Source: Mobula hypostoma
Taxonomy: Eukaryota
Direction of reading: 5' to 3'
NCBI RefSeq assembly: GCF_963921235.1
Contig: NC_086107.1
Coordinates: forward strand, 101,000,001 to 101,064,000
Length of the DNA: 64,000 bases
Shown: positions 874 to 63,736 of the stretch, in pieces
How positions within the stretch are numbered: position 1 is the first letter of the stretch
How the letters are laid out: the number at the start of each line of letters is the position of its first letter
Translations under genes and position numbers: made by a program
Notes under the pieces: generated by a model
The model's input: only the letters and a program-made list of their open reading frames with translations
The model's database searches: none
What the model was told of the DNA's origin: nothing

Positions 874-951
874 ACCGACCGGGAAGGCTCTCAGCGGACT
901 TTCTCCAAAAGCAGAATGCGAGATGCTTCCACAGACACTAAGTACGACGTG
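874..951 (+). CDS. Predicted internal exon (type A repeat), TDREGSQRTFSKSRMRDASTDTKYDV
   Basis: Acceptor tactccctcttag, donor gtaagt, 78 nt, open in phase 0. Aligns with exon 60423 (T-D/E-R..RT...S..R/K-D). Confidence 0.75.
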
Positions 952-3900
952 GTAAGTGTGTAGATTGTTAATGTATCACAGTAAATGGATTTGGCATCCT
1001 TCAGGGCATTTACCACCGTTTGGGCAAGAAACCGATTTAATACTGGTTTCAGCGGGCAGTGTCAATGGAACAATGGCTTTGGTTTTACCACCTCAGGGGA
1101 ATTACTAAACAGAATCTGACAGTGACTCAAATGAGGAGGCGTCCAAAAAGCCTTGTCAACAACAGAAGGTTTTAAGGAGGATAGAAAGGTTTAGGAAGAG
1201 ATTTAAGGCCGATGTAGCATAAGGAGTGCCCAGGAAAAGTGAAAGCTGTTAAGCAGGTTTGGATAGCAGAGGCTGAAGGTGGTTTCAAGGGATAGGGATA
1301 TATATTTTGCTCCAAGTATATGCCTTTAAGACCATGAGACTAGAAGACATAGGAGCAGAATTAGGCCATTCGGCCCTTTGAGTCTGCTCTGCCATTCCAT
1401 CATGGCTGATTTATTTTCCCTCTTAACCCCATTCTCCTGCCTTCTCCCCGTAACCTTTGACGCCCTTACTAATCAAAAATCTATCAACCTCCCCTTTAAA
1501 TATTCCCATTAATTTGGTCTCCACAGCCATCTATGGCAATGAATTCCACAGATTCACCACACTCTGGCTAAAGAACTTCCTCCTCATCTCTGTTTATCCT
1601 TCATCCTTCTATTCTGAGGCTGTGTCCTCTGATTCTAGACTCCCCCACTGTAGGAAACATCTTTGCCACATCCACTCTACCTGTGTCCTCTGGTTGTAGA
1701 CTGCCCCACTATAGGAAACATTCTTTCCACGTCCACTCTATGTAGACCTTTCAATTTTCGATAGATTTCAATGAGAACCCACCCCCCCATTCTTCTAAAC
1801 TCCAGCGAGTGTAGGTCCAAAGTCATCAATTGCTGCTCGTACATTAACCTTTCCATTCCTGGGTTTATTCTTGGTTTCCTGATCTGAGATGGCAGACACT
1901 ATGTTTGAACAGAAAGATGGGTAGGATGAGGTCACACAGTCCCTCAATCCTTCTCCGCTATTTGATAAGGTCACCTCTGTGATTTGATTGCTAGGCAGTT
2001 GCAATCTTCTCCCACCTCATCCTCAGCTTTCCATGCGGATAACATCGGACATCTCCAGATTAGGCTTGGTTTGACTCTACCGGACCATTCTGCCCAAGAT
2101 GTTGAGGTCTGCGTGTGACGATTGGGTTTGGCCACCATCCTGACACTCATGCCCGCTGGCATCATCGGTAAACTTGCAGGTTGTTTCCTAAAATCAGAAT
2201 CAGGTTTATTATCACTGATATGTCATTAAATGTGTAGTTTTGCTGTAGCAGACCCGAGTAAGACATAAAAATGACTGAGTCACAAATAAATAAAAAGTTC
2301 GAAAGAGGAACAGCGAGGTAGTGTTTACGGGTCAACGGACTGTTCAGAAATCCAGTGACATTGGGGAAGAAGCTGTTCCTGAAATGTTGAATGTGGGTCG
2401 TCAGACTTCCGGGCTTCCACCCTGGTAAGAGCAATGAGAAGAGGGCACGTCCCGGATGGTGAGGGTCCTTAATGATGGATGCCACCTTCTCGAGGCACCG
2501 CCTTTGGAAGATTTCCTTGATGTTGGGGAGGGTTGTACCCGTGATGGAGCTAGCTGTGTCGTCGACCCTCTGCCCCCTCTTGCGATCCTGTGCATTGGAG
2601 CTTCCTTTCAATCAGAATGAGCCGCCAATCAGAACGCTCACAACCACCAATATGCAGGAATCTGCTAGACTTGGTGGCAAACCAAACCTCCTCAAGCTCC
2701 AAATGAAGCTGAGCTGCCAGCAGGGCTTCTTTGCGATTGCATCAGTACGTTGGGCACAGGACAGATCCTCTGAGATGTTGACGCCCAGGGACTTGAAGCT
2801 GCAGGCACTCTACATTTGGATCATTGTTTTAAGAGAAAGCAAGCAAACAGACCAACACTGATCCAAATCTGCCTCTGGGCATTTTGAACAGTGCTCAATG
2901 CAACTTGTACTCAAGAGCTTAATTCTTGCAATTTATAATTTTGAAATAGAGGTAAAATCAGAATCAGAATCAGGTTTAATATCACCAGCATATGTTGTGA
3001 AATTTATTAACTTTGCAGCAGCAGTACAATGCAATACTTGATAAATATAAAGGAAAAAACTATAGAGAAATAAATGAATTACTGTAAATATATATGTATA
3101 TTAAATAGTTAAAACAAGTAGTGCAAAACAGAAATAAATAAAAAAGTGACACACACACACAAAATGCTGGAGGAACTTAGGAACTTTTGTGTGTGATGCT
3201 TGGATTTCCAGCATATGCAGATTTTCTTGTTTGTGAAATAAAAAAAGTAGTGAGGTAGTGTTCATGGGTTTAATGTCCATGTGGAAATCAGATGGCAGAG
3301 GGGAAGAAGCTGTTCCTGAATCACTGAGTGTGTGCCTTCAGGCTTTTGTATCTCCTTCCTGATGGTAACAATGAGAAGAGGGCATGTCCTGGGTGGTGGG
3401 GGTCCTTAATGATGGACGCCGCCTTTCTGAGGCATCGCTCCTAAAGATGTCTTGGATTCTACAGAGGCCAGTGCCCATGATGGAGCTGACTAATTTTTCA
3501 ACTTCCTGCAACTTACTTCGATCCTTCGCGGTAGCCACCCCTCCCATACCAGACGGCGATGCAGCCGGTTAGAATGCTCTCCACTGTACATCTGTACAAG
3601 TTTTCGAGTGTGTTAGATGACAAACCAAATCCCCTCAAACTCCTAAATCTTACAAGAGTACTGAACAAGGCACAGTGAGGAGAAGCTTCCTTCAAGGAGG
3701 GCAGGATCTAGGTCGAAGATGAGTGCAGACAGTTAGATAACAGTGGCTCTGAACTGCAGCTGTATACCTTCAGCCCCAAACCTCTACATCTTTACTCTAT
3801 ATCCAAAATAAAGGCAGCTGACCTCCAGAATCAGCAGCCTTTTGGGGTGAGAATTCCAATTTTCCTGTACAATCTGCGAAGTGATTCAGTCCCAGATGTC

Positions 3901-4603
3901 AAAGGGCTTGTCCTGGATTTACCACATTTTGGAAGTTAATTCCTCCAACGAGTCCTTCTTTCGTTACGAGTTCTCAATTATGCCTTGCTTCTCCAGTACA
4001 CCGTGTTTCAGTCCAGTCCATCCTCAGAGATTAACCCTTTCAGCCCTGATGTTATTCTGATGAATCTTCTTTCCATCCTTGGGAGACGAGGTACAGTGTA
4101 GAGAGGCAGCGGAGGACCTCAGAGGTTTTGCACCTCTAAAAGAGTGCTTTAAGGCTTTAAAATTCCAAGCCCATGAACCTGAAGTTTAATTGGCCTCCCT
4201 CCCTCCCATCTGCCTGTGTCAACCTGCAACTGAGTCATAAACATTAAAAGCTGAAGCATCTCTACATGATCCCTGGAGACAGACAGTAGGAAATCAGCAG
4301 AGGCTGGAGCGCACACAAAATGCTGGAGGAACTCAGCAGACGAGGCAGCATCTACGGAAAAAAGCAAACAGTCGACATTAGGTTCCTGGAGAAATTATTA
4401 TAGCCTACCCGCCCCTCACCCCCGTGCCTGTTTCCTAATACCAGCCATCTCATAATCCCACTTCTAATTCCGTGCAATTCAAAGACTCACTTGTAGTTAT
4501 CCTCAAGTTGTCTATATGCAACCTCACATACGCTTCTATCCACCACATTAAGGCAACCGACAAGTCTGAACTAATCTGGTTTGATCCTCCCTGTTTGCAT
4601 TAG

Positions 4604-4663
4604 GAGCAACATTTTGCAGTGTGCCCATCTGACAAAGGGATGAAGAAATGTGGGATGTCGAGG
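4604..4663 (+). CDS. Predicted internal exon EQHFAVCPSDKGMKKCGMSR
   Basis: Acceptor ctgtttgcattag, donor gtaaga, 60 nt, only phase 0 is open. Weak similarity to the type B exons. Confidence 0.5.
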
Positions 4664-6885: not shown

Positions 6886-6966
6886 CCTGACAGAGGTGTC
6901 TCAAAACAGGCCTCCTCATTCTCAATGAAAATCAACCACCGATATCTAACACAGCAGCGTGATAAG
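6886..6966 (+). CDS. Predicted internal exon PDRGVSKQASSFSMKINHRYLTQQRDK
   Basis: Acceptor catcattttttacag, donor gtaatt, 81 nt, phase 0-0. xD/ERG start is shared with 60423 and 63653. Confidence 0.75.
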
Positions 6967-7609: not shown

Positions 7610-8735
7610 GTTTAACACGATCTTCCCTTGGAGGCTGGTGGGTAAACTGTCCTTGTTGGGACTCAACGCCCCTCTCCGTAATTTCTTGGCAGAAAGACCA
7701 TAGTCAGTTGGAGTTGGCAGCAACACTTCAAGCTCCATCATGCTGAGCACTGCTGCCCTGGGGCTGTGTGTTCAGCTCACTTCTATTCACGCTGCTGACT
7801 CACGACTGTACTGCCAGATCCACCTCAAACTGCATCATCAGGTTCGCTGATGATACAACAGTGGCTGGCCCCACCGGCAACAGTGATGAGTCAGCAGACA
7901 GACAGGAGGTGGAGAGGCCTGTCAAATGGTGTGAGAACAACAACCTGAGTCTCAACGTGGACAAGACAGAAGAGATGATTGTGAACTCCAGGAAGGCACA
8001 GGCCAACTATTTTCCATTGCACATCAATGGCTCTGCTTTGGTGAGAGTGAAGAGCACAAAGTTCCTTGGTGTGCACATAACGGACCCTGGACCCACAACT
8101 CCTCCTCACTAGTCAAGAAGGCACCGCAGCATCTGCATTTTCTGAGGAGATCGAGGCGTGCAAGGCTCCCCACCCCCATTCTAACAACTTTCCACAGGAG
8201 CACCGTTGGGAGTGTCCAGTCCTGCTGGATCATTGTGTGGTACGGAAGCTGTGAAGCTTTGGATCACAAGACCCTACAGAGGATAGTGAAACCCGCCAAG
8301 AGGATCACTGGGGTTTCCCTCCCACTGTTTGTGGCATTTACCAGGAGCGTAGGGCCCAAAGCATTGTTGAAGATCCCTAACAACCACAATCTCTTTGACT
8401 CATTATCGTCAGGAAGGAGGTACAGGAATGTCAAGACTAGGATTACCAGACTGAGTAACATCTCCCTCCCTCAGGCTGTGAGACTATTGCATACCCTGTG
8501 ACCACCAAGGTCTCATCGCCAGGATACCGAGCTATTTACCGTTTATTGTACTGTTTACCGTTTACCTCTGCTGCACACCACATGCACTTTGAATTATATT
8601 TTATTAACTTATCTGTGGTAATGTTGTTAACGTGCTGTGTGTGATACACGTTTTGTGGGTACGCTGTAGTCCAGAGGGACGCTGTTTCATTTGGTTGTAG
8701 ATACGTACAGTCAGGTGACAATAAACTTGAACTTG
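7610..8735 (+). mobile_element. Rex1/Babar-type LINE fragment (others near 2000-3645, 12900-13480, 22970-23410, 36170-39010, 46495-47090, 52675-53270)
   Basis: LFTLLTHDC...FADDTTV...LSLNVDKT peptide. acttga repeat tail. Confidence 0.85.
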
Positions 8736-11234: not shown

Positions 11235-12215
11235 ATATAACCATATAATCATATAACAATTACAGCACAGAAACAGGCCATCTCAGCCCTTCTAGTCCGT
11301 GCTGAATGCTTACTCTCACCTAGTCCCACCGACCTGCACTCAGCCCATAACCCTCCGTTCCTTTCCTGTCCATATATCGATCCAATTTAACTTTAAGTGA
11401 CAACATCGAACCTGCCTCAACCACTTCTGCTGGAAGCTCGTTCCACACAGCTACCACTCTCTGAGTAAAGAAGTTCCCCCTCGTGTTACCCCTAAACTTT
11501 TGCTCCTTAACTCTCAACTCATGTCCTCTTGTTTGAATCTCCCCCACTCTCAATGGAAAAAGCTTATCCACGTCAACTCTATCAATCCCCCTCATAATTT
11601 TAAACACCTCTGTCAAGTCCTCCCTCAACCTTCTACGTTCCAAAGAATAAAGACCCAACTTGTACAACCTTTCTCTGTAACTTAGGTGCTGAAACCCAGG
11701 TAACATTCTAGTAAATCCTCTCTGTACTCTCTCTATTTTTATTGACATCTTTCCTATAATTCGGTGACCAGAACTGTACACAATACTCCAAATTTGGCCT
11801 CACCAATGCCTCGTACAATTTCAACATTACATCCCAACTCCTATACTCAATGCTCTGATTTATAAAGGCCAGCAAACCAAAAGCTTTAATCACCACCCTA
11901 TCCACATGAGATTCCACCTTCAGGGAACTATGCACCATTATTCCTAGATCCCTCTGTTCTACTGCATTCCTCAATGCCCAACCATTTACCATGTATGATC
12001 TATTTTGATTAGTCCTACCAAAATGTAGCACCTCACATTTATCAGCATTAAACTCCATCTGCCATCTTTCAGTCCACTCTTCCAACTGGCCAAAATCTCT
12101 CTGCAAGCTTTGAAAACCTACTTCATTATCCAGAACGCCACCTATCTTAGTATCATCTGCATACTTACTAATCCAATTTACCACCCCATCATCCAGATCA
12201 TTAATGTATATGACA
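11235..12215 (-). mobile_element. CR1 LINE 3' fragment inserted in a SINE
   Basis: YINDLD...KYADDTKIG...EQRDLG...RPNLEYCVQFWSP and FFTQRVV..WN.LP motifs. Confidence 0.92.
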
Positions 12216-12319
12216 GAGGAAACCCACACAGTCACGGGTCACATTTCAGTCTCTTGAGCACATAATTTGGGCTGCAACTTCTGTTGTGTTGTTCAGCATT
12301 GGAACTGCTGTCTAAACTT

Positions 12320-12686: not shown

Positions 12687-12767
12687 GTGGATACAAGGGT
12701 TTACTCCCAAAAAGAAGAACTGACCATCTGCACTAAATGTTCCCGCTTTGCTTTGGAAGTTAACAAG
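12687..12767 (+). CDS. Predicted internal exon VDTRVYSQKEELTICTKCSRFALEVNK
   Basis: Acceptor ttcttctgctgttag, donor gtttgt, 81 nt, phase 0-0. Similar to exon 50845. Confidence 0.75.
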
Positions 12768-15700
12768 GTTTGTTTGCCAGTGAGAAACATGAGGAAGGAG
12801 AGGGAGACCAGTGAGGACTTGGTACAGATGCGTTAACTGGTGTGGGATTGGGGTTGCCGATATTCCAGAATTTAACAGTTAAAATAGAATAGAATAGAAT
12901 AGAACTTTATTGTTGTTGCTCAAGACAATGAGATTGTGATGCTACTCCAGTCCATGTAAAACAGACACTTACAACGTGGAAAGTCTTAATATATATTAAA
13001 AAATCCCCATATTTACACGCAACGTGACTTTGATAGTCCATGACACTCAAAGGCCATTGGCAAACCAGGGTGCAGCATTGTTCAGCTGCACAGTAGCCCT
13101 CAGGAAGAAGCTGATTTTCGGTCTTATTGTCTTGGCTAAGATGTTTCTGTATCTCCTACCGATGGCAGGAGATTGAACAGACAGTGTCTGGGATGGGAGG
13201 GGTCTTTAATGATGTTACGAGCGTGCGTGGGCATCGAGAGTTGTAGATTGTCTCCAGGTTTGGTAGTTGAGTCCCAACGATGTGCTGAGCCATCCTAATC
13301 GCCCATTAGAGTGCTTTGTGTTCTCTGCAGTGAGAGCACCACACTGTCATTCCGTATGTCAGTATGCCCCCTATCACACTTCAATAAAAGTTAGCCAGCA
13401 CTCTTTGAGGCAGACCAGCACCTGAGCAGGTATAGTCACTGTCACGCCTTCCCTCCTGTCGAGGTCGTGTTTTAATCTCCAGCACACTGCAATGAGCAAA
13501 AACAAAATTTCATCAGTTTTTGAACAGATGGGCTTCCTCCCACGGCCTAGATTAATTACCCTCTGTAAATGCCCCTAATGTGTAGGGGGTGGAATCTGGG
13601 GGAGAGCTGGTGGGAATGTGGAGAGAAAGAATGCGATGGGATTAATGTGAATGGCGCTCGGCAGTCAGCACAGACTTTATGGACCGAGTGGCCTCTTTTC
13701 ATGCTCAATTGCCGTAAAAGTTTTGTTTGCATTTTCCCTGAGTATTTTAGCTTTTATAAGAATTTGGATGTAGAAGGGAGGCGGGAGGTTGTTAACTGGG
13801 TGGGGTGGCTGGAGGTGGGATGGCCATATCATGAGGTCTCCAGGAATCACAAGCTCTCAAAACCAGACATTGTGGATCCATCTGGGAAGGCAGTCAAAGA
13901 TTCTTGACCCTACTGAGCTCAGCCCACAATCCCTGTTCTTAATTACAACCCAACAATACACAGTGGTAGATGAACAGACAGACATCAGATGGGACGGTGT
14001 TGAATTCTGGTATCTGTGTAGTCTTCCAACTCTCACGCATTAGCTATATGTACAAAGCTCATCTGCAGCGGCCTGGGTGGTCCCTTTGTGATCTTCACCA
14101 TCCTGTCCCTCGAAGCATGGCCAAGGCAAGGGGTGAAGCTGGGCAAGTAATGACAACAACTAAGAGAGGACTGGCTGGGAGAGTCTTTAACCCAACTCAC
14201 CCAGGGAGCAGTCAACCTCATATCATGTTGAATCAAGTCATGTCGATGGACCTAAGGGAACCGAAACATAAATATTAAGGAGAAAAGAATGTAGATTGTG
14301 CTAAGAGGGTAAAAACTTCAAAGTACATTTGTAATCAATGTACACTGCATACAGCCTTGAGATTTGTCTTCTTGCAGGCAGCCACAAAACAAAGAAACAC
14401 AATAGAAGCCATTTTTAAAAAACACACAAAAAGAACAAATGGTGCGAACAATGAAAAGGTAAACAGACCGTTAACCATAGAGTCCCTGAAAGTGCACCCA
14501 CAGCCATAGAGTCACCTCAGCCCTGAGGCGAGTGAAGCTGGTCCAGGAGCCCGATGGCTGCAGGCCTCAGCCACAGAGTCAGTTCAGCACTGAGCAGTGT
14601 CGATGGCTGCAGGCCACAGCCACAGAGTCAGCTCAGTGCAAGTAAACCTCACAGAGTAGTGAGCTGGACATCACTTCGTCCTCCGCCCTCGATCGAGTTG
14701 CACAAATATTAACACAAGTAAACAAAAACACATGGAACATGAGCTGCAGAGTCCTGGAAAGTGTCTCCACATCTGCATAGTAAAGCCCATCCAGACTGAA
14801 GGGCGACAACTGCTCCCGAACCCGGCGGCATGAAGCCCAAGACTTCTGTACCTCTTGCGTGACAGCTGTAGTGAGAAGAGAGGGAGACTGATCAAATGCA
14901 GGCAGTTGGCGCTGAACACCTGTTCATTATTTGCTCTCATCCAGGACCATTTTAATCTTGCTCGACTCTTTAGTTGGCACGGAACAATGCAGCTGACCAC
15001 AGGCTTGTCTTCTGCCATTAGGCCTCAACACAGCGTCTACACCCAGCGTTAGCCAGCCCGGCCGTACCTGTACTCTCAATAGTTTGGTCCACCAAATCTC
15101 CCAGAAGACCGCAAATGTCTGCCTAGTCGGTTCAAAAGTAGGTGGGGGGGAGGAGGTTCACGGTGGGTGCTTATACCTGCAAAGGCTCAGTACTTCAAGC
15201 AGTCCATCTCTGGATTAATTTATGTTCCACTAATGAGAAGGCCACAAGATAAAGCTGGGGTAAGTTGAAATTTGTGGGTTAGATGGTAATTGGCCACTGT
15301 AAATTGCCCCTGTGTGAGGGTGAGTGGTATTATCTTGGGGGGGTGTTGACGACGTGGGGAGAATACACTGTGGTTAACGTAAATGGGCGGTGGATGGTGA
15401 CCAAAGACTCAGCGAAGGACCTGTTTCTATGCTGTGCAATGACTGTCAAACGGTCACCCCGGGTGAATTCTCATCACATCACTTCCCCTTCCTTAACGAG
15501 ACACTAAAATTGTGGCCTTACTCTGGGTAGGTTCTCATTATAGTCCTGAGCATACTAGGAAGACTTGTTCATAATCCTTTCAATAAAGGCCAACTTTCTA
15601 TTTCTCTCAGTGCCTCAACTTCCTCAGGAGACTAAAGAAATATGGCATGTCCTCTTTGAGCCTGACTAATTCTTATCGATGCATCATAGAAAGCATCCTA

Positions 15701-19998: not shown

Positions 19999-22900
19999 GC
20001 AAATGGGCATCTTAGCTGCATAACACAAAATCGGGCCATTTGGCCCATCGGATCCAAGCCAGCACCCAGCAGAGCTATCCCATCAGTCCTATGATTCCCC
20101 CTGCCCCTGCATCTTATTCTCACTCACAGGCTCATTAGTTACCCTTTCTTTCCTTTGCCATCTGGTTACACTCTGGGTAATTTATAGCAGTGAATTAACC
20201 AGCCACCAACAGTCTTTAGGATGTTGGAAGAACCTGGAGCACTAGAGAGAACTCAACCACTCTGGAACAACCCCAGATCTGGATACACCATGGAAGGAGC
20301 TGTATCCAGTAGATTTCCAAATGTTTATTGATGCAAGCAAGGTTATCTTACTCCTGTATGCGACTGGGATATTTATAATATTCCACATGCAGAGGTTTAC
20401 GAACCTCCTCTCCACTATAGATTTGCTTGTCTGAACCGTTAAGTTTCTCCCCTTGTTTAGCAAAGGTGTTTGCAACAGCTCACATTTGCATAGCTCTTCT
20501 AATGTAGAAGATGTTCCAAGACACTTTGTAGAAGTGGAGTCAGGCAGAAGTCAACACCAAGCCTATGAAGATGTTAAGGGAATGGAAAGCTTGTCACAGA
20601 GTTGCGTCTCTTGGAAGGCTGTTAAGGGAGAAGGTGCTGAGGGTAAGAGGTTGAGAGAGGAAATTCCAGATCTGGGATTCAGATGGCTTGACTGTTGGGT
20701 GTCGGGAGGACAGAAGAAAAGGTTTAGAGGGCTGAAGGATGTTAGAATCACGGCACTTAGGAGGAAGCTATGCAGTTTGTGGAGCTCCTGCCAACCCTTT
20801 GAAAGAAGTATCTGATATCTCACCTCCCTGGCCTCTCTCCGTAGTCCAGTAAAACTTTTCAAATCAACATCCACTCTTTCAAGCATAATTGGTAAATGGT
20901 CTTTTATAGTCGCATGTACCAAGGTATAGTGAAAAACTTTGTTTTGTGTGCCATCCATATAGATCACGTCATCATATCTAGTACATAGGAAAGGCAATAA
21001 GAGAATGCAGAATGAAGTGTTGCAGTTACAGAGAAAGTGCGGTGCAGGCAGACGATAAGGATCACAGCCATGGCGAAGTAGCTTGTGCGTTCAAGACCAT
21101 CTTATCGTACAAGAGGACCAATAAGTAGTGGGATGGGAGCTGTCCTTGAGCTTGATGCAATGTGCTTTCAGATTTGTTGTATCTTGTGCCCAGTGGGAGG
21201 GTGGGAAAGAGAGAATGTCTGGGGTGGGAGGGGTCTTTGGTTACGTTAGCTGCTTTAATAATAATACTACTTTGTTGATCCCAAGTGGGAAATTTGTTAC
21301 AGCAGCAACATTTAAAAGCACACTTAGCAGTGTGCAGACTTAACTAATAATAATGTACAGAATAATAATATACACAATAATAATTTACCAAGGCAACGAG
21401 AATTTTATTGTGTATTCCAGTTTCTATCACTTGCCTATTGCGTCTAAAGAAGCATCTCGGTTTTCTTCCACCTCCTTTGCCAATCCGTATTTCTGATTAG
21501 TGGTCCCTCGCCTGTCGAAACGTTCTTGATCTATTTACTCTAACAAAGCCCCCCATCATTTTGAGAGCACCCATTAAATCGCTTAACAGTTTTAATCCTG
21601 AGAAAAGATTCTTCAATCTCCTCCTTTCGGACAAGCATCCTCTGCACTCTGACTGGGATGCTATTCCAAAATGCTGTGCTCTGAAATGGGCACAGTACTC
21701 CAACTCAACACACACAAAGTGCTGGAGGAGCTCAGCAGGTCAGGCAGCACGCAAAGTGCAGGAGGACTCTAACTGAAGCCTATCCGGTGTTTCTTAAAGA
21801 TGTGTTGTTTGTACGCCCCATGTCTCAATAAACGTCCAAGGATTCCATCTTTTTGTTTATGTACAACTTTCCTTGTGGCTACCAAGTTTTGTGTTTGTCA
21901 TCACATCCATTTTCCTGCACTTCCTCTCAAACTTGAGCTTTCACCCAGGAGTCAGAGAGTCACACGGGTCCTTCGGCCCACCTTGTCAATGCTGACCATC
22001 AAGTCCTATCTGTATTGAGCCCACTTACCAGTACTTGGTCGTTAGCCCTCTATATCAAGATCAATCCAGATACTCCTTAGATGTTATGAGGATACTTGCT
22101 TTCACCAACCCTCCTGGTGAGAACATGAGAACAATTCTTCCTCAGATCCTCGGACTCTTCCCCCTTCCCCTGTACTTGCATCCTCTTGACTATAACACCT
22201 CTGTCATAGAGCAAGGTTTCTACTGTCTACCCTGTCTATGCCCAAATACTGCCTCTCATTGATTTTTGACCTGCTTTGTGAAGAGAAGGGCGAAGAGACT
22301 TGAATATGAGGGTTCACGTTTAAAATTTTGCACAATAGGTGGCAGAAGCATCTGAATAATAAAGAAATTGAAATTCTAACGTGTGTAGTGACATTTACTG
22401 GACCAGGCTGGTACGGATTTATTGATGATAAAAGTAACCAGCTGGAATTAGTTAATAGTCTGATGGGTGTGGATAACTTTGCAAAGAGTGATTGAAAGTG
22501 ATGCAAGATAGAGAGAGAGGAAAAGAGTGTAAAGTTGTTACATTTAGCGAAGGTGAACGTAGGAAAGAGGCTTGACTTAATCACAAACAACAGGAATTCT
22601 GCAGATGCTGGAAATTCAAGCAACACACATAAAAGTTGCTGGTGAACGCAGCAGGCCAGGCAGCATCTCTAGGAAGAGGTGCAGTCGACGTTTCAGGCTG
22701 AGACCCTTCATCCTGATCGACAGGCATCAGTTAAACATCTGGCGTGATGCAAAACTTCTAGAAGTCCCTAAAAGCCTTCAATTGTGCCATTTAACAACCG
22801 TAGCCAATGAAGCATTAGATATAAGGAAACGATTTCACAAATACAAAGGTAAACTGATTCGGTGGCTTAAGAAATACGTGCATTGGAAAAACACAGCAAG

Positions 22901-24097: not shown

Positions 24098-24163
24098 GTA
24101 GATGGAAGGTTTTCAAAAGAAGACTCAAGTTCATACACTGGATATCTGCAGTCTGCTGCCAAG
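24098..24163 (+). CDS. Predicted internal exon VDGRFSKEDSSSYTGYLQSAAK
   Basis: Acceptor ttgtttactttttcag, donor gttggt, 66 nt. SKEDSSSYTGYLQS aligns with SIEETSSCIGYRQS (50845). Confidence 0.78.
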
Positions 24164-25409: not shown

Positions 25410-26360
25410 AACTGAAAGAAGAGCTAGTAAGAGATTTGAGAGGGGGAGGGGGAGATCCGAAATGATAGGAGAAGACAGGAGGGGGAGGGATGGAGCCAAG
25501 AGCTGGACAGGTGATTGGCAAAAGGGATATGAGAGGATCATGGGACAGGAGGCCTAGGGAGAAGGAAAAGGGGGAGGGGGGGAAACCCAGAGGATGGGCA
25601 AGGGGTATAGTCAGAGGGACAGAGGGAGAAAAAGGAGAGTGAGAGAAAGAATGTGTGCATAAAAATGAGTAACAGCTGGGGTACAAGGGGGAGGTGGGGC
25701 CTAGCGGAAGTTAGAGAAGTCAATGTTCATGCCATCAGGTTGGAGGCTACCCAGACGGAATATAAGGTGTTGTTCCTCCAACCTGAGTGTGGCTTCATCT
25801 TTACAGTAAAGGAGGCCGTGGATAGACATGTCAGAATGGGAATGGGATGTGGAATTAAAATGTGTGGCCACTGGGAGATCCTGCTTTCTCTGGCGGCCAC
25901 ACATTTTAATTCCACATCCCATTCCTATTCTGACATGTCTATCCACGGCCTCCTTTACTGTAAAGATGAAGCCACACTCAGGTTGGAGGAACAACACCTT
26001 ATATTCCGTCTGGGTAGCCTCCAACCTGATGGCATGAACGTTGACTTCTCTAACTTCCGTTAATGCCCCACCTCCCCCTCGTACCCCATCCGTTATTTAC
26101 TTATATACACACATTCTTTCTCTCGCTCTCCTTTTTCTCCCTCTGTCCCTCTGACTATACCCCTTGCCCATCCTCTGGGCTTCCCCCCCCCCCCTTTTCC
26201 TTCTCCCTGGGCCTCCTGTCCCGTGATCCTCTCATATCCCTTTTGCCAATCACCTGTCCAGCTCTTGGCTCCATCCCTCCCCCTCCTGTCTTCTCCTATC
26301 ATTTTGGATCTCCCCCTCCCCCTCCCACTTTCAAATCTCTTACTAGATCTTCCTTCAGTT

Positions 26361-33096: not shown

Positions 33097-33165
33097 AAGG
33101 ACAACAAATTCTTCTCACAGAGTGGCCACAGGGGATATCTGCGATCTAGCACCAAAAGAGGCGAG
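33097..33165 (+). CDS. Predicted internal exon KDNKFFSQSGHRGYLRSSTKRGE
   Basis: Acceptor tttgcttattctttag, donor gtttgt, 69 nt. Aligns without gaps to 46148 and 48019. Confidence 0.75.
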
Positions 33166-37462: not shown

Positions 37463-38065
37463 ACCTACCACCCCACCAGCCTCCGGGTCCAACATATTAT
37501 TCTCCGTAACTTCCGCCACCTCCAACGGGATCCCACCACTAAGCACATCTTTCCCTCCCCCCCTCTCTCTGCATTCCGCAGGGATCGCTCCCTACACAAC
37601 TCCCTTGTCCATTCGTCCCCCCCATCCCTCCCCACTGATCTCCCTCCTGGCACTTATCCGTGTAAGCGGAACAAGTGCTACACATGCCCTTACACTTCCT
37701 CCCTTACCACCATTCAGGGCCCCAAACAGTCCTTCCAAGTGAGGCATCACTTCACCTGTGAGTCGACTGAGGTGATATACTGCGTCCGGTGCTCCCGATG
37801 TGGCCTTTTATATATTGGTGAGACCCGACACAGACTGGGAGACCGCTTTGCTGAACATCTACGCTCTGTCCGCCAGAGAAAGCAGGATCTCCCAGTGGCC
37901 ACACATTTTAATTCCACATCCCATTCCCATTCTGACATGTCTATCCACGGCCTCCTCTACTGTAAAGATGAAGCCACACTCAGGTTGGAGGAACAACACC
38001 TTATATTCCGTCTGGGTAGCCTCCAACCTGATGGCATGAACATTGACTTCTCTAACTTCCGCTAG
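37463..38065 (+). CDS. 5'-truncated PLE ORF: Cys linker plus GIY-YIG endonuclease (~200 codons open)
   Basis: CKRNKCYTC linker, then VIYCVRCSRCGLLYIGETRHRLGDRFAEH...HF...LRLEEQHLIFRLGSLQPDGMN. The mirror copy on the minus arm has a CGA>TGA stop. Confidence 0.88.
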   Translation, partial: TYHPTSLRVQHIILRNFRHLQRDPTTKHIFPSPPLSAFRRDRSLHNSLVHSSPPSLPTDLPPGTYPCKRNKCYTCPYTSSLTTIQGPKQSFQVRHHFTCESTEVIYCVRCSRCGLLYIGETRHRLGDRFAEHLRSVRQRKQDLPVATHFNSTSHSHSDMSIHGLLYCKDEATLRLEEQHLIFRLGSLQPDGMNIDFSNFR

Positions 38066-43236: not shown

Positions 43237-43271
<35 letters not shown>

Positions 43272-46147: not shown

Positions 46148-46216
46148 GTTGAAGCAAATTTCTCCGAACGGACTGCTCACCGAGAGAATGCTCGGACTTT
46201 CTCCAGGAGTGATCGG
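46148..46216 (+). CDS. Predicted internal exon VEANFSERTAHRENARTFSRSDR
   Basis: Acceptor gtctgtccatcattcag, donor gtcagt, 69 nt, phase 0-0. Confidence 0.78.
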
Positions 46217-48018: not shown

Positions 48019-48087
48019 GTGGATATAAATATTTCTTCATCAGAAGAACAAAATTCATACACAAGGGCTTTTCCCAGAAGAGACAGG
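48019..48087 (+). CDS. Predicted internal exon VDINISSSEEQNSYTRAFPRRDR (GC donor)
   Basis: Acceptor ttgtctgccattcag, 69 nt, paralog of 46148. Followed by gccagt where the paralog has gtcagt. Confidence 0.62.
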
Positions 48088-50844: not shown

Positions 50845-50922
50845 GTGCCTACAAAGCTCAACTCAATAGAAGAAACAAGCTCTTGCATAGGATACCGTCA
50901 GTCTCCCCTCGCGAGCAATAAG
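50845..50922 (+). CDS. Predicted internal exon VPTKLNSIEETSSCIGYRQSPLASNK
   Basis: Acceptor tttgtaccatctag, donor gtcagg, 78 nt. Homologous to 24098 and 12687. Confidence 0.75.
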
Positions 50923-51560: not shown

Positions 51561-54499
51561 GGCCATCCCCCTCCATAGACGCTGCCTGACTTGCTGAGTT
51601 CCTCCAGCATTTTGTGTGATGCTCCAGGGGTTTCCAGCATCTGCAGAATCTCTTGCGTCTCTGATTGCGAGGCTGTGAGTTGCAAATTTTCAGAAGTGCT
51701 GAATTCTTCAGTCTTTTGAGAATGTAGAAGTTTTGGATGTTAGTTACCTGCTAATCTAACTGTATATTAATAGTACTAGTACCCCTGTGATGGTGATTTA
51801 ATGGTGGATGTTTGCCAATCAACCTTGCTGGCCCAGAAAGGGATCAATCTAACTGCTCATTCCAGCAGCTCATTAATTGTTTAAGAATATCTATTTCTCA
51901 ACTTTACTTATCAGTCTCTTTTTTCCCCTTCTGATACTCCTGTCTTCCCCTCCCTATTCTGATTTTGACTATTCGTGGACACATTTTAAAAAATAAACTT
52001 GCAGCTGCAAAAAAGTCTGAAATAAAAGCAGAAATTGCAGCAACCACTCATCAGGCTGGGCAGCGTTCGTGGGAAGAAAAGCAGTTACCGTTTCAGGTCT
52101 GGGACCCTTTGTCGGAACTTGAGTTCACTGTTCCCTGTCCACCAGGTTGTCCCACTTCCCTTGTGCGTATATTTTTAGCATTACGACAGCACACAATGTC
52201 TGAAATAAAAGGGCGAGGACGTGTTCCAAGTTGTAGATGAAGTTCCAGGAAAGTTGGTGTTCCCATTGTGGACCATACTGTGCAACAGTCTGGGAAAGAT
52301 TAATTGTAGTCTGCATGAAAGTTTAGAGCTGAGGGTGCGATCTCGCAATGTGACAGTGGTGTGTTCAACTGGGTATTTGTTTCCTCTAGTGGAAGTTGAT
52401 TCTGTGTGAACTCGGGCAGTGTGAAGAGCCCGCGTGTGCTGACTACCTCACAGAGTGGTCCTAATGCACGCCGTGGCGCTGTGGCTGCGGTTGCACCTTG
52501 ACCTTCAGCAGCACCCAGAGCTGCCGATCCAGGATCCCCACAAGGATACCAATGTGGGAATGCAACAAGTGCAGGTGTTGGGAATGTGTATTTAGAGCCA
52601 GAAGTTGGGTGATGGGACGTTATGGAGGTTGAGTGGGAAAGTATTCACTTTGGAAAAGGGGGAATATATTTTGTAAGGTGATCAAAAAGGCGCAACAGTG
52701 CCTTTATTTCCTGCAGAGCATCAAGAAAGCTCACCTCTGTCCCAGGATACTGACAGACTTTTACTGCAGTACCATTGAGAGCATACTCACCAACTGCATC
52801 TCAGTGTGGTATGGCAATTGCCCCGTATCGGACCGCAAAGCACTCCAGCGTGTGGTGAAAACTGCCCAGCGGATTATCGGCACCCAATTGCCCACCATTG
52901 AAAACACTGCCTGGGCAGGGCGAAAAGCATTATCAAGGATGCATCTCACCCTAACCATGGACTTTTTACTCTCCTCCCATCCGGTAGGCGCTACAGGAGC
53001 CTCCGCTCCCGCACCAGCAGGCACAGGAAGAGCTTATTCCCTGAGGCTGTGACCCTGCTGAACCTCTCATCACAGTGCTAAGCAATATTGCACCCATATT
53101 GTACTGTCTCAGTACTTTTATATTTGTGTGCTATAGCACTTACTTTTTATTCGCAGATATTTTGTAAATAACACTATTCTTTGCATTTTTGGTTAGATGC
53201 TAACTGCATTTCATTGGCTTTGTATCTGTAGTCGGCACAATGATAATGAAGTTGAATCTAATCTAATCTAAATGGCAGCATCCAATTTTTGGGAAAGGAA
53301 GGAAATATGAATGTGAATCCTTCCCAGATTATGAACTTCTGAGAGAGGAACGAGCATCTGGGAGTTGGGTGGGATGGAATTGCCAGCTGCTGTAGAGCTG
53401 CAGGCATCCTCTGCTGCATGGGAGATGGTTTGCAGCTCCATTTTAACTTCTGAGCTATTGACAGGAATGGGAACCCTGCCATAACCCTGCGGGCAAACTC
53501 TACTGAGCGTTATTAGCATTTATTTTATTTTTGATTTTAAAAAAAGTTTATTGAAATACAATGTAGAATAGGTCCTCTTGGCCCTTTGAGCCACACCACC
53601 CAGAAATCCCCTGATTTAATCCTAGCCTAATCGTGGGACAATTTACATTGACCAATTAATCTACCAACCGGTAGCTCTTTGGACTGTGGGAGGAAACTGG
53701 GGCACCCGGAGGAAACCCACGCGGTTACGGGAAGAACGTGCAAACTCCTTACAGGCAGTGGTGGGAATTGAATCTGGGTCGCTGGCACTGTAAAGTGTCG
53801 TGCCAACCACTGCGCCACTGTGCCACATGTTAGTCTTTAATATGTAAAAATGGAGCCGCGTTGCAGTTACATCTGATCATAATGAAGCCATAGGTCCAGT
53901 CATGAGAGAATCTGCAGATGCGGGAAATCCAAAGCAACGCACACGGAATGCTGGTGGAACTCAGCAGGCCGGGCAGAATCTGTGGAAAAGAGCAAATGGT
54001 TGAGGTTTCATGCTGAGATCCTTCAACAGGAAGGTGTCCACAGGCCCAGTGTTGGCGTCTTTACATAAAAGTAGACTATCCTTGGAGGAATGCCATGATG
54101 ACTCACTGTATCTGCAAGGGGGACACTGTGAGGGGAATTCTTTGAAGAGAGACGGAGGAGCTCAGTATGGCATACCCCAGAGTTCCGGAAAATTGGAGAT
54201 AATCTCATCGAAGGATGTGGGTCTGGGAATTCAGTTGCAGGGTGCCTTTTCTTCAGTGCTAGGTGATTGAAGATCAACTTTCCCTGTGGTGAAATGGGCT
54301 AGTGACCGCCTGTGGGTCACTGTGTGCCACTGCAGGGATTTGAGTGATCACCTTGTATAACTGAGAGTTTCATCAGGTACACTTGGGATAATGTCTCTCC
54401 CTGTGAATCATTTGCCCAGGGAATGGGAATGATTGTTTGAACAGGTAACCAGTCATGCTGATTAACTCAATGCTGGACTTGGACCTGCGTAAGTTAACA

Positions 54500-55890
54500 T
54501 AAAACATACATAGAATAGTACAGCACAGTACAGGCCCTTTGGCCCACAATGTTGTGCTGACCCTTAATCCCTGCCTCCCATATACCGCCCCCACCTTAAA
54601 TTCCTCCATATACCTGTCTAGTAGTCTCTTAATTTTCACTAGTGTATCTGCCTCCACCACTGACTCAGGCAGTGCATTCCAGGCACCAACCACTCTCTGA
54701 GTAAAAAACCTTCCTCTAATATCCCCCTTGAACTTCCCACCCCTCACCTTAAATCCATGTCCTCTTGTATTGAGCAATGGTGCCCTGGGGAAGAGGCGCT
54801 GGCTGTCCACTCTATCTATTCCTCTTATTATCTTGTACACCTTTATCATGTCTCCTCTCATCCTCCTCTCCAAAGAGTAAAGCCCTAGCTCCCTTAATCT
54901 CTGTTCATAATGCATACTCTCTAAACCAGGCAGCATCCTGGTAAGTCTCCTCTGTACCCTTTCCATTGCTTCCACATCCTTCCTCTAGTGAGGCGACCAG
55001 AACTGGACACAGTACTCCAAGTGTGGCCTAACCAGAGATTTATAGAGCTGCATCATTACCTCAGGACTCTTAAACTCTATCCCTCGATTTATGAAAGCTA
55101 ACACCCCATAAGCTTTCTTAACTACCCTATCTACCTGTGAGGCAACTTTCAGGGATCTGTGGACATGTACCCCCAGATCCCTCTGCTCCTCCACACTACC
55201 AAGTAACTTACCATTTACTTTGTACTCTGCCTTGGAGTTTGTCCTTCCAAAGTGTACCACCTCACACTTCTCTGGGTTGAACTCCATTTGCCACTTCTCA
55301 GCCCACTTCTGCATCCTATCAGTGTCTCTCTGCAATCTTCGACAATCCTCTACACTATCCACAACACCACCAACCTTTGTGTCGTCTGCAAATTTGCCAA
55401 CCCACTCTTCTACCCCCACATCCAGGTCATTAATAAAAATCACAAAAAGTAGAGGTCCCAGAACCGATCCTTGTGGGACACCGCTCGTCACAACCCTCCA
55501 GTCCGAATGTACTCCCTCCACCACGACCCTCTGCTTTCTGCAGGCAAGCCAATTCTGAATCCACCTGGCCAAACTTCCCTGGATCCCATGCCTTCTGACT
55601 TTCTGAATAAGCCTACCGTGTGGAACCTTGTTAAATGCCTTACTAAAATCCATGTAGATCACATCCACTGCACTACTCTCATCTATATGCCTGGTCACCT
55701 CCTCAAAGAACTCCACCGGCTTGTTAGACACGATCTGCCCTTCACAAAGCCATGCTGACTGTCCCTGATCAGGCCATGTTTCTCTAAATGCCCATAGATC
55801 CTATCTCTAAGAATTTTTTCCAACAGCTTTCCCACCACAGACGTAAGGCTCACTGGTCTATAATTACCTGGACTATCCCTACTACCTTTT
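54500..55890 (-). mobile_element. CR1 LINE fragment with well-preserved RT
   Basis: YRPVSLTS, MDFSKAF, SGVPQGSVLGP and FADDTK motifs in ORFs 54985-55922. Confidence 0.95.
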
Positions 55891-56499: not shown

Positions 56500-56574
56500 T
56501 CTGAGAGAAGCTTCTCAGATAGAACCAACTGAATCTCACTGGGCAAGGATGTCTACCTACAGACAGTCAGCAAG
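56500..56574 (+). pseudogene. Dead copy of a type A exon (SERSFSDRTN*ISLGKDVYLQTVSK)
   Basis: Aligns without gaps to exon 60423. Has an in-frame TGA, a shifted acceptor and no donor at the expected position. Confidence 0.65.
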
Positions 56575-57030
56575 TGTACAACTTTATATTGGTTCTTGCA
56601 CTCTCAATGACACTGCCAACAGTCCCACACCACCAGGTTTGTGACCCACACCACCACGTTTAGGAACAGTTATTAACCTTCGACCGAGGCTACCCAAGCC
56701 TTCCCCGCCCGTGAGCACATCTACACAGAGCGCTGTCGCGAAGAAAGCAGCATCGATCATCAAGGACCCCCACCATCCAGACCATCTTCTTGCTGCTGCC
56801 ATCAGGAGCTTTAGGTCCCACACCACCAGGTTCAGGAACAGTTGTTACCTGTCAACCATCAAACTCCTGAACCAGTCTGGATAACTTCACACACCTCTAC
56901 TCTGAACTGATTCCACATCCATTGGACTTGCTTTCAAAGTCTCTACAACTCATGTTCTCAGTATTTACAACAACACACACAAAATGCTGGTGAACGCAGC
57001 AGGCCAGACAGCATCCATAGGAAGAAGCAC

Positions 57031-59586: not shown

Positions 59587-59689
59587 TCCACATCCTCCCA
59601 CCCTGTTTCAATGACAGTGTCTGCTACTAATTTCTGGTAGGTGGTATCTCATTAATCAGAGTACCTCAAGGAGCCAGTGTTCTACTGTT

Positions 59690-60140
59690 CTCACCCCACT
59701 ACACAGACAGTGTCCAGTTGTTACGCCCCCTACATTGCAGTGTCCAAGCCATCCCATCCCTCACATTGCCACTTTCTAACCATCTCAGCTCCACATCGCC
59801 AGTGCCCAAACCATCTCACCCCCTACATTTCCAGTGTCCAAATATTCCCAGCCCACACCGCCACTACCCAACCCATTTCATCCCCCACACTTCCAGTGTC
59901 CAACTATCCCCAGCCCACACTGCCACTGTCCAACCCATCTCATCACTCACACTGCCAATGTTTACCTGTTCCCATCCCCCTCACTGCCAGTGCCCAACCC
60001 ATCTCACCCCACACATTGCCAGTGCCCAGTTGTTCCCACCCCTCAACGCCAGTGTCCAATCTGTTCCATGCTCCATAGTGCCAGTGTCCCCAGCCCATCC
60101 CAACCCCTCCCTCACAGTTCCAATATCCAACTGCCAGTCT
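59690..60140. repeat. Degenerate C-rich minisatellite (~33-35 bp unit)
   Basis: Recurrent cacactgccagtgtccaacccatctcacccc-like units. Confidence 0.8.
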
Positions 60141-60422
60141 CAACTGTTCCCTCTAAACAGTGGTCCCTGGTTTAATTTCTCTGTGGTCATTGTCAACTTG
60201 AAAGTGACCGCTGTTGCAGGTTCTCTCTGGAAATCTGCAAACTTTCCCCACAACTCCTGGTGTTCTCTGCTGTTCCGTTGCACTGGTCCTGCCACCTCAG
60301 GACTGTACTGAGGGAGCAGGAGGACCCACTGTGATGGTGTGTTACCACCAATGGCCACTGAGAAGTGAAAACGCGAGGTCCAGCCTCAGACTGTGAAAAG
60401 ACTTTGTTAACTTCCTGCACAG

Positions 60423-60506
60423 ACTGAGAGAGGACTCACAACCAGGACCATGCCCACCTCACCAGACAAAGATGTCTATCCACAGACAGCGAACAAGCAG
60501 GAAAAG
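60423..60506 (+). CDS. Predicted internal exon TERGLTTRTMPTSPDKDVYPQTANKQEK
   Basis: Acceptor aacttcctgcacag, donor gtgagg, 84 nt. Ungapped paralog of 63653. Confidence 0.82.
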
Positions 60507-60659
60507 GTGAGGCCGATGCTGCATCCATGGGTGACTCTTGTCCAGCTGCACAGACTAGGGATATCCCAGACAATCTGCCCTAGGATACTCTGAGAAGGTG
60601 GTAATTAGCTTCCTTTAACAATGGAGTTCATCTTCAAAAGGCAATGCCTCAAACAGGCG

Positions 60660-63140: not shown

Positions 63141-63652
63141 GCCCCCAAGAGTTCCTTTATCTTGAGTTGTCTAATCTATTCTGGTTCGTCATCCATCATT
63201 TAGGAACCCCATCACCCAGGAGAAGCCTTCTCCTCATTGCTGCCAGCAGGAACCTGAAGACACACTCTCAAAATTTTAGGAACAGCTTCTTCCACTCCTC
63301 CATCAGATTTCTGTATGCATAATAAACACTACCTCACCTTTTGCTCTCTTCCTGCACTATGTTTTTAATATTTGTAGTTGTAACATAACAATAAGGGTCT
63401 CGGCCCGAAACATCAACTGTACCTCTTCCTAGAGATGCTGCCTGGCCTGCTGCGTTCACCAGCAACGTTGATATGTGTTGTCCATGGAGGGGAAGTTGGT
63501 TTCTGTGTTGGACCAGACTGTGTTCATATCTCACTGCAATTTCTTGTGGTCTGAGGCATAGCAGTCGCCTTACCAAGCTGTGATGCATCCGGACACGATG
63601 CTTTCTATAAAACGATCTTAAGAACTCTTCTCTGCCTCTCATTCCTTAACAG

Positions 63653-63736
63653 GCTGAGAGAGGTTTACCTAATAGGTACATCTCCAACTCGCTGAACAGA
63701 GATGTCCGTCAGCAGGGGACCGAAAAGGACAAGAAG
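63653..63736 (+). CDS. Predicted internal exon AERGLPNRYISNSLNRDVRQQGTEKDKK
   Basis: Long pyrimidine tract ending ccttaacag, donor gtaaag, 84 nt. ERGL..R....S..R/K-DV is shared with 60423. Confidence 0.82.

What the first reader, a model, noticed from the sequence alone, without database searches (positions are those of the whole stretch)
874..63736. Unrecognised gene built from many symmetric mini-exons encoding divergent 20-28 aa repeats
Seen: 13 plus-strand segments in non-repeat islands. Each has an AG acceptor, a GT donor (one GC), a length divisible by 3 (60-84 nt) and an open phase 0 frame. They resemble each other. Type A: TERGLTTRTMPTSPDKDV, AERGLPNRYISNSLNRDV, TDREGSQRTFSKSRMRDA. 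Type B: VEANFSERTAHRENARTFSRSDR, VDINISSSEEQNSYTRAFPRRDR, KDNKFFSQSGHRGYLRSSTKRGE, VDGRFSKEDSSSYTGYLQSAAK, VPTKLNSIEETSSCIGYRQSPLASNK. Spliced, they give about 321 aa rich in Ser/Arg/Lys, with no start or stop in the window. Inference: a probably disordered protein expanded by serial exon duplication, in which any exon can be skipped without frameshift, allowing combinatorial isoforms. I do not recognise the gene; it may be lineage-specific or a fast-evolving part of a known gene.
Basis: partly seen in the sequence, partly recalled or inferred. Interest (0 to 1): 0.85.

Follow-up and report, generated by a model that had tools for sequence, protein, structure and literature searches.

The report
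TRIOBP gene's repeated mini-exon array
The mini-exons are real, but they belong to the cartilaginous-fish version of the known actin-binding, deafness-linked gene TRIOBP, where each small repeat of a floppy basic linker has its own skippable exon.

Summary
I could not identify the other three. All 8 quoted peptides sit where stated, each flanked by AG and GT (one GC donor), 66-84 nt long, phase 0.

The gene is not unrecognised. [quoted passage not shown] The gene spans about 297 kb, and a tree places it in the TRIOBP clade, not MPRIP.

The exons encode two repeat families: A (26-28 aa) and B (22-27 aa). Both are conserved unit by unit in 15 chondrichthyan species. They sit between a conserved N-terminal region and the PH and coiled-coil domains.

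Predicted isoforms here and in five other elasmobranchs differ by whole units, which fits cassette splicing. Two intact exons (48019, with the GC donor, and 60423) appear in no model of this species. A decayed A-type pseudoexon lies at 56500.

The region is basic (pI 9.9) and gets very low structure-prediction confidence. The human R1/R2 actin-binding repeat consensus does not match these units. No RNA data could be obtained.

Verdict: an annotated gene with a repeat and exon architecture I found described in no paper. Interest is modest.

The parts
874..951 (+). Mini-exon A1 (78 nt, 26 aa, TDREGSQRTFSKSRMRDASTDTKYDV)
   Evidence: AG/GT borders. Equals aa 361-386 of P0006 at 100%. Present in 11 of 11 predicted isoforms.
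6886..6966 (+). Mini-exon A2 (81 nt, 27 aa, PDRGVSKQ...QQRDK)
   Evidence: Sequence read. Equals P0006 aa 387-413 at 100%. Present in 11 of 11 isoforms. 96% identical in Hemitrygon P0007.
12687..12767 (+). Mini-exon B1 (81 nt, 27 aa), cassette
   Evidence: Equals P0006 aa 414-440. Skipped in predicted isoforms X6 and X10.
24098..24163 (+). Mini-exon B2 (66 nt, 22 aa, ...SSSYTGYLQSAAK)
   Evidence: Equals P0006 aa 441-462. Present in 11 of 11 isoforms. The SYTGYL motif is conserved across elasmobranchs.
33097..33165 (+). Mini-exon B3 (69 nt, 23 aa), cassette
   Evidence: Equals P0006 aa 463-485. Skipped in X4, X9 and X10.
46148..46216 (+). Mini-exon B4 (69 nt, 23 aa, VEANFSER...FSRSDR)
   Evidence: Present in 11 of 11 isoforms. 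Its orthologue is skipped in two Hemitrygon isoforms.
48019..48087 (+). Mini-exon B5 (69 nt, 23 aa) with GC donor; in no predicted isoform of this species
   Evidence: Open frame, good acceptor, donor gccagt. Present in 0 of 11 isoforms. Found by the cross-species B profile at E 0.0022. Orthologous units lie at the same rank in skates and sharks. tblastn hit from Heptranchias P0020 at E 0.013.
50845..50922 (+). Mini-exon B6 (78 nt, 26 aa), cassette
   Evidence: Equals P0006 aa 509-534. Skipped in X5 and X9.
56500..56574 (+). Decayed A-type pseudoexon (psi-A): in-frame TGA at codon 11 and no GT donor
   Evidence: A profile hit at E 0.0085. Translation is SERSFSDRTN*ISLGKDVYLQTVSK. Aligns without gaps to exons A3-A5 at DNA level; where they have AAG|GTRAGG it has ACTTTATA.
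60423..60506 (+). Mini-exon A3 (84 nt, 28 aa); intact but in no predicted isoform of this species
   Evidence: AG/GT borders, open frame. Present in 0 of 11 isoforms. Orthologue is in stingray models at 80-82% identity. A profile hit at E 4.9e-10.
63653..63736 (+). Mini-exon A4 (84 nt, 28 aa)
   Evidence: Equals P0006 aa 535-562 at 100%. Present in 11 of 11 isoforms.

Best explanation

The mini-exons encode a modular, basic, probably disordered linker. It sits between a conserved N-terminal region shared with MPRIP and the PH domain plus C-terminal coiled coil. The linker is made of two old repeat families: A, consensus TDRGFSNRTSSNSLNKDVYLQTSDKYDK, and B, consensus VDGKFSSKEESSSYTGYLRSSSKSDK. 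Each unit has its own phase-0 exon of 66-84 nt, in the order A A B B B B B B (psi-A) A A A.

Because every exon is symmetric, splicing can drop or add units without changing the frame, giving proteins with different numbers of units.

Inferred, not shown: the units act together as a multivalent F-actin-binding or spacing segment, like the repeat region at the same position in mammalian TRIOBP-4/5. Unit number would then tune how TRIOBP binds or bundles actin. Units are gained, lost and homogenised over time: copy number varies between species, and this window holds one dead unit and one with a weakened donor.
For: Gene identity:
- PH-domain exons lie downstream on the same strand. Their best relatives are named TRIOBP or MPRIP.
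- P0006 (1194 aa) maps exon by exon at 95-100% onto the window and its flanks. The whole gene spans C45:100910536-101207765.
- An ML tree of 26 proteins places the gene, with 100/100 support, in a clade with lungfish and tetrapod TRIOBP, apart from the MPRIP-like proteins.

Repeats:
- 78 A units and 66 B units were found in 16 sequences from 15 chondrichthyan species.
- Orthologous units are more alike than sister units within one protein.

Splicing:
- 11 predicted isoforms show five inclusion patterns of three cassette exons.
- Predicted isoforms of five other elasmobranchs differ by exactly one or two units.

Physical nature:
- Net charge +19 and pI 9.9 over 281 aa.
- pLDDT 25-29 and no secondary structure for aa 361-590. 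In the same model the coiled coil reaches 85-90.

Function by position:
- A review (PMC7663296, passages read) states that human TRIOBP-4/5 carry repeat regions R1 and R2 ahead of the PH domain, and that R1 binds and bundles F-actin.
- The lungfish TRIOBP 26-aa repeat just before its PH domain aligns in register with the A profile (hhalign P 2.4e-5, probability 75%).

Birth and death of units:
- The pseudoexon psi-A.
- The C-terminal A cluster has 2-5 units in the models of different species, and the five units are 87% alike in Heptranchias.
Against: - All isoform evidence comes from automatic gene models whose support I cannot inspect.
- The human R1 and R2 consensus repeats do not match the A or B profiles better than shuffled versions. 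Shuffles reached the observed score 928, 587, 1266 and 746 times out of 2000.
- The linker's pI of 9.9 is well below the 11.7 quoted for R1.
- The cross-species A and B profiles hit no non-chondrichthyan protein among the 171 held.
- The skate repeat region gave no significant match to 13 bony-vertebrate and paralogous proteins.
- Similarity between A and B is weak (hhalign P 0.018).
- Actin binding by these units is therefore an inference from position and orthology only.
Confidence: 0.6

Rival explanations
1. The linker is a passive, length-adjustable spacer or phospho-regulated hinge. It sets the distance between the N-terminal region and the PH/coiled-coil part and carries Ser/Thr phosphorylation sites, without binding actin itself.
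For: The units are Ser/Thr-rich (S 14.2%, T 8.9%) and contain many Arg-x-x-Ser/Thr contexts, such as RGFSNRTSS. Structure-prediction confidence is very low. There is no similarity to the actin-binding R1 consensus. Charge is only moderately basic.
Against: Each unit keeps specific aromatic and charged positions over very long times: FS, SYTGYL, KDVYLQT, and a final DK. Orthologous units are 52-100% identical across rays and sharks. That is more constraint than a pure spacer needs.
Confidence: 0.25
2. The units are docking sites for a protein partner other than actin, so that unit number sets how many partners one TRIOBP molecule can hold. Possible partners include a myosin-phosphatase or Rho-pathway component, or a hair-cell rootlet protein.
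For: Short conserved linear motifs recur in a disordered context. The family includes MPRIP, an adaptor protein (names; its partners are recalled, not tested here).
Against: No partner is suggested by any result here. No Pfam family matches any unit (0 of 10 exon peptides).
Confidence: 0.1
3. Some of the units, especially 48019 and 60423, are no longer used in this species and are on the way to becoming pseudoexons. If so, the real protein has fewer units and less isoform variety than the DNA suggests.
For: Both are absent from all 11 predicted isoforms. Exon 48019 has a GC donor in a weak context and lacks the GYL core of the B consensus. A fully dead unit (psi-A) lies between them.
Against: Both keep an open frame and a good acceptor. 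Exon 60423 also keeps a GT donor (gtgagg), and its orthologue is in stingray models at 80-82% identity.
Confidence: 0.4

Closest known systems
Mammalian TRIOBP-4/-5 repeat regions R1 and R2 (deafness DFNB28; review PMC7663296, passages read)
   Same: Orthologous gene by tree. [quoted passage not shown] Both are basic, Ser/Arg-rich and predicted unstructured. Unit size is similar (R1 24 aa, against 22-29 aa here).
   Different: Human R1 and R2 lie within one large exon according to the papers (abstract of PMC9544205). Here every unit has its own exon, with introns of 1.8-13 kb between them. The consensus sequences do not match above shuffled controls. pI is 9.9 against 11.7 for R1. Actin binding is shown for R1 and untested here.
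Lungfish and tetrapod TRIOBP pre-PH repeats (P0064, P0099, P0130, P0096)
   Same: Sister clade in the tree. Tandem repeats of 20-26 aa lie directly before the PH domain. The lungfish unit aligns in register with the A profile over 16 columns (P 2.4e-5).
   Different: The unit sequences differ: turtle RSRSPTRQPERDWRSQAETL, axolotl SDRSPSRV. The A and B profiles do not detect them. Their exon structure could not be examined. Their predicted isoforms show no unit-wise differences in the repeat region.
MPRIP (myosin phosphatase Rho-interacting protein), the paralogue
   Same: Shares the N-terminal CxxC-type start, the ESGYFSLE and RSPGREEVERLFG motifs, the PH domain and the coiled coil. Several annotation pipelines call the ray and shark gene 'MPRIP-like'.
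   Different: MPRIP falls in separate clades in the tree. The A and B profiles hit none of the MPRIP-named or MPRIP-like proteins among the 171 held, chondrichthyan ones included.
Arrays of symmetric repeat-encoding cassette exons in large cytoskeletal genes, such as the titin PEVK and nebulin repeat exons (recalled, not checked here)
   Same: One repeat unit per small exon, length divisible by 3, and unit-wise exon skipping that changes the length of an unstructured or modular region.
   Different: Different gene, different repeat sequence, far fewer units (11), and much longer introns. This comparison rests on my own knowledge, not on any call.

Membership tests
TRIOBP (orthologue group) | PH domain followed by a long C-terminal coiled coil | tested here: met
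   Pfam PH hits on the downstream exons, 26.4 bits against a cutoff of 25.1. PF00169 is precomputed on P0006. The model shows strands at 598-671 and helices at 873-1193 with pLDDT up to 91.
TRIOBP (orthologue group) | Groups with TRIOBP of other vertebrates rather than with MPRIP in a tree | tested here: met
   In an ML tree of 26 proteins, the clade of chondrichthyan sequences plus lungfish and tetrapod TRIOBP has 100/100 support. The tree is midpoint-rooted, with no outgroup and no mammalian TRIOBP included.
TRIOBP (orthologue group) | R1 and R2 repeat motifs as defined in human TRIOBP-4 | tested here: not met
   The consensus R1 and R2 quoted in PMC7663296 score no better against the A and B profiles than shuffles do: 928, 587, 1266 and 746 of 2000 shuffles reach the observed score. 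Only consensus motifs were compared; no full mammalian long isoform was in hand.
TRIOBP (orthologue group) | Binds and bundles F-actin | not testable with these tools
   Needs a co-sedimentation or bundling assay with the expressed linker.
MPRIP | Groups with MPRIP in a tree | tested here: not met
   MPRIP-named proteins form other clades.
Tandemly duplicated cassette mini-exon array | Exons symmetric (same phase at both ends, length divisible by 3) | tested here: met
   All 10 window exons, plus 68679-68762 outside it, are phase 0 and 66-84 nt.
Tandemly duplicated cassette mini-exon array | Units related to each other by sequence | tested here: met
   Within each type: A profile at E 3.7e-8 or better for 5 units; B profile at E 4.4e-6 or better for 5 units and 0.0022 for the sixth. 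Between types the signal is only weak: hhalign P 0.018.
Tandemly duplicated cassette mini-exon array | Alternative inclusion shown by transcripts | tested here: inconclusive
   Only predicted isoforms support it.

The most novel reading that the evidence does not exclude
The actin-organising repeat module of TRIOBP was ancestrally an array of symmetric cassette mini-exons. Cells such as hair cells could then set the number of actin-contacting units per molecule by splicing. On this view chondrichthyans keep that state, while mammals replaced it with fixed repeats in one giant exon. The A and B units would be a previously undescribed pair of actin-binding or bundling motifs.
Probability: 0.15. 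Interest if true: 0.55.

Novelty: new member of a known kind. Interest (0 to 1): 0.3.

Why it matters
TRIOBP builds the actin rootlets that anchor hair-cell stereocilia, and its repeat region is where most human DFNB28 deafness mutations fall (reviews listed, passages).

The cartilaginous-fish orthologue carries a different repeat set that is conserved across chondrichthyans, with one unit per skippable exon. This offers a natural series of proteins with graded repeat number. Such a series could be used to test how repeat valency relates to actin bundling.

It also corrects public annotation. In four species the repeat-bearing half is filed as a separate 'uncharacterized protein', and in others the gene is called MPRIP-like.

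For the scan itself the result is mainly a clarification: the finding is a known, annotated gene and not a new one.

Tried and rejected
RNA evidence:
- The look-up of sequencing runs listed no RNA holder. It returned 10 small runs with shares of 0.05-0.13 and uncertain kind.
There is therefore no transcript test either way.

Flanks and paralogues:
I did not pursue it, so whether the paralogues carry similar arrays was judged from proteins only.

Searches that added nothing:
- Pfam on the 10 exon peptides: 0 families.
- Earlier scan notes: nothing on this genome or on TRIOBP.
- A first attempt to search with the exon alignment failed because the query was under 40 aa.

Rejected ideas:
- Homology of B units to human R2. 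This was prompted by SCIGYRQSPLAS in exon 50845 against the R2 consensus, but the profile-versus-shuffle test does not support it.
- Homology of B units to the RAFPRKRD stretch of whale MPRIP. The B profile does not detect any MPRIP.
- Extra units at 106624-106773. They have no splice sites.
- Candidate exons from the simple splice filter, such as 4604-4663, 14378-14458 and 35920-35997. They have no cross-species or profile support. Several others are copies of an interspersed repeat present on both strands.

Literature (listings only, unless stated):
- 'triobpb': 1 paper, a zebrafish hair-cell expression table.
- TRIOBP + shark: 5 papers, none with both terms in title or abstract.
- TRIOBP + MPRIP + paralog: 2 papers.
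- A wider six-term search was unspecific.
- None describes these repeats or their exon structure. Subscription-journal papers, such as the original R1/R2 work, were not searchable.
Full report
**Observation**

Reading the flanks gives ten exons in the window:

| Unit | Coordinates |
|---|---|
| A1 | 874-951 |
| A2 | 6886-6966 |
| B1 | 12687-12767 |
| B2 | 24098-24163 |
| B3 | 33097-33165 |
| B4 | 46148-46216 |
| B5 | 48019-48087 |
| B6 | 50845-50922 |
| A3 | 60423-60506 |
| A4 | 63653-63736 |

Each follows a pyrimidine-rich tract and an AG. Nine end before GT and one (48019) before GC. All are 66-84 nt, divisible by 3 and open from their first base.

I can account for 10 segments and 253 aa.

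The bare criterion (AG, open frame, GT) is worthless on its own. There are 2412 such segments on the + strand and 2283 on the - strand; after a simple splice-signal filter, 35 against 18.

**What gene it is**

The window is G000:C45:101000001-101064000 in a 3.48-Gb genome. I fetched 100 kb on each side.

About 90 kb downstream on the same strand lie three exons reading KKGWMSILGDSGE / [23 protein letters not shown] / ANDLDGEIDL.... They match Pfam PH. [quoted passage not shown]

One of these, P0006 (1194 aa), contains the mini-exon peptides letter for letter. It maps onto the region exon by exon:
- aa 361-590 are A1, A2, B1, B2, B3, B4, B6, A4 and a further unit A5 at 68679-68762, just outside the window.
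- The PH exon at 153803 follows directly.

A whole-genome search puts the gene at C45:100910536-101207765, about 297 kb. It also shows two paralogous loci, on C36 and C68.

An ML tree of PH plus coiled-coil parts of 26 proteins places the gene, with 100/100 support, in a TRIOBP clade. The chondrichthyan sequences are sister to lungfish and tetrapod TRIOBP, and MPRIP-like proteins lie elsewhere. The tree is midpoint-rooted and includes no mammalian TRIOBP. So the gene is the chondrichthyan orthologue of TRIOBP.

**Annotation status**

The cluster of P0006 holds 11 predicted isoforms, all matching the window.
- Eight of the ten window exons are in these models.
- B1, B3 and B6 are skipped in some of them, giving five inclusion patterns.
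- B5 (48019) and A3 (60423) are in none.

In four other species the repeat-bearing N-terminal half is filed as a separate 'uncharacterized protein'.

**The repeats**

I iterated profiles over one long isoform per species. This collected 78 A units and 66 B units from 16 sequences of 15 chondrichthyan species, the chimaera Callorhinchus included. The consensus sequences are:
- A: TDRGFSNRTSSNSLNKDVYLQTSDKYDK
- B: VDGKFSSKEESSSYTGYLRSSSKSDK

Units keep their rank order between species. Each unit here is 52-100% identical to its best counterpart in other rays and sharks, but only 17-46% identical to any other unit of the same protein. The duplications therefore predate the ray-shark split.

The C-terminal A cluster is more fluid. 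The protein models hold 2 to 5 units depending on species. In Heptranchias the five units are 87% alike on average.

Run over all 11,058 six-frame ORFs of the 264 kb, the cross-species profiles find only the known exons, all on the + strand. A3 scores E 4.9e-10 and B5 scores E 0.0022, although neither exon's own sequence was in the profiles.

The profiles also find a partial hit at 56533-56607. Read from 56500 it gives SERSFSDRTN*ISLGKDVYLQTVSK. At DNA level it aligns without gaps to A3-A5, but it has an in-frame TGA and no GT where the others have their donor. It is a dead A-type exon lying between B6 and A3.

**Independent support for the exons**

tblastn of 19 related proteins against the 264 kb gave 23 clusters, all on the + strand. 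Twenty-one are exons of this gene, including all ten window exons. Two are not:
- A weak single hit at 20508-20582 that contains a stop.
- 52452-52586, which is treated under 'Noticed in passing'.

**Splicing**

I obtained no RNA evidence.

The indirect evidence is that predicted isoforms differ by whole units, both here and in five other elasmobranchs:

| Species | Isoform differences (aa) |
|---|---|
| Stegostoma | 25, 26, 29 |
| Chiloscyllium plagiosum | 28, 29 |
| Chiloscyllium punctatum | 54 |
| Hemitrygon | 23, 28, 56 |
| Rhinoraja | 22, 29 |

Models of lungfish, turtle, chicken, anoles, alligator and axolotl show no unit-wise differences in their repeat regions.

**Nature of the region**

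The 11 units together are 281 aa, with net charge +19 and pI 9.9. Composition is S 14.2%, R 11.4%, T 8.9%, K 8.2%.

In an AlphaFold2 model of P0006 built with 14 orthologues, aa 361-590 have pLDDT 25-29 and no secondary structure. The coiled coil in the same model reaches 85-90.

**Relation to known repeats**

A review (PMC7663296, passages read) states that human TRIOBP-4 has:
- R1: six repeats of a 24-aa unit, pI 11.7, the main F-actin-binding part.
- R2: five 16-aa motifs.

Most deafness mutations lie in one large exon. Another abstract places R1 and R2 in exon 7.

The published R1 and R2 consensus motifs do not match the A or B profiles better than shuffles. The profiles hit no non-chondrichthyan protein among the 171 held.

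An exhaustive phmmer search of 1.84 billion representatives with a skate N-terminal half (P0092) found 47 proteins at E up to 0.001. The repeat part was matched only in chondrichthyan proteins. A direct test of the repeat region against 13 other proteins was negative.

There is one positive signal. The 26-aa repeat that precedes the PH domain of lungfish TRIOBP aligns in register with the A profile (hhalign P 2.4e-5, probability 75%) and more weakly with B (P 0.0014). A against B gives P 0.018.

So the repeat region is positionally equivalent to the repeat regions of other vertebrate TRIOBPs. Its sequence has diverged beyond ordinary detection.

**Mechanism**

Shown:
- A chain of symmetric exons, one repeat unit each.
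- Deep conservation of each unit.
- Gene models that skip units.
- One dead unit and one unit with a weakened donor.

Inferred:
- The linker is a multivalent actin-contacting or spacing segment whose unit number is set by splicing. This rests on analogy with R1/R2 of mammalian TRIOBP and on the basic, unstructured character of the region.

The rivals are a passive or phospho-regulated hinge, and docking sites for another partner.

**Novelty**

The gene and most of the exons are already in public annotation. The searches I could run found no paper describing these repeats or their exon structure (listings only, apart from the passage). Subscription journals were not covered.

This is a new member of a known kind: a repeat region encoded by cassette mini-exons inside a known cytoskeletal gene.

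**Noticed in passing**

- 52452-52586 is single-copy in the genome. It is 53% identical over 45 aa to a segment of the Pristis model P0091 that lies between its B and A units. It may be an optional exon or a conserved intronic element.
- The introns carry reverse-transcriptase and GIY-YIG fragments and tandem repeats.

Noticed in passing
window 52443-52592 (+): An open frame of 50 codons. Positions 52452-52586 are 53% identical over 45 aa to aa 589-633 of the Pristis model P0091, a segment lying between that protein's B and A units. The DNA is single-copy in this genome. It could be an optional exon, a retained-intron artefact in the other species' model, or a conserved intronic element.
   Followed up: partly
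window 25413-25502 (-), 26262-26357 (+), 30814-30909 (-), 36548-36643 (-), 38258-38374 (+): Copies of one interspersed repeat on both strands. Each reads as an open AG...GT segment (LLAPSLPLLSSPIILDLPLPL...). They mimic exons and pass a simple splice filter.
   Followed up: no
window 54985-55800 (-), 11708-12238 (-), 37436-38065 (+), 7935-8501 (+): Transposon remnants in the introns. Reverse transcriptase RVT_1 scores E 7.7e-24 and E 1.6e-4. A GIY-YIG domain of the kind found in Penelope-like elements (the attribution is recalled) scores E 2.9e-4, with a similar copy on the opposite strand at 37073-37450. An ALKBH8_N-type stretch scores E 4e-14.
   Followed up: partly
window 59726-60067 and 35130-35352: Tandem repeats. 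A 32/62-nt unit array ends about 350 nt upstream of exon A3. A 53-nt unit is repeated 4.2 times at 35130.
   Followed up: no
G000:C36:86682803-86809382 (-) and G000:C68:10182600-10287490 (-): Two paralogous loci match the PH and coiled-coil parts of P0006. They are presumably the two MPRIP-like genes seen as separate clades in the tree. Their DNA could not be fetched, so whether they hold mini-exon arrays is unknown.
   Followed up: partly
proteins P0091, P0092, P0093, P0094 (other species): In four elasmobranch annotations the N-terminal, repeat-bearing half of this gene is a separate 'uncharacterized protein' with no PH domain. This suggests split gene models.
   Followed up: partly
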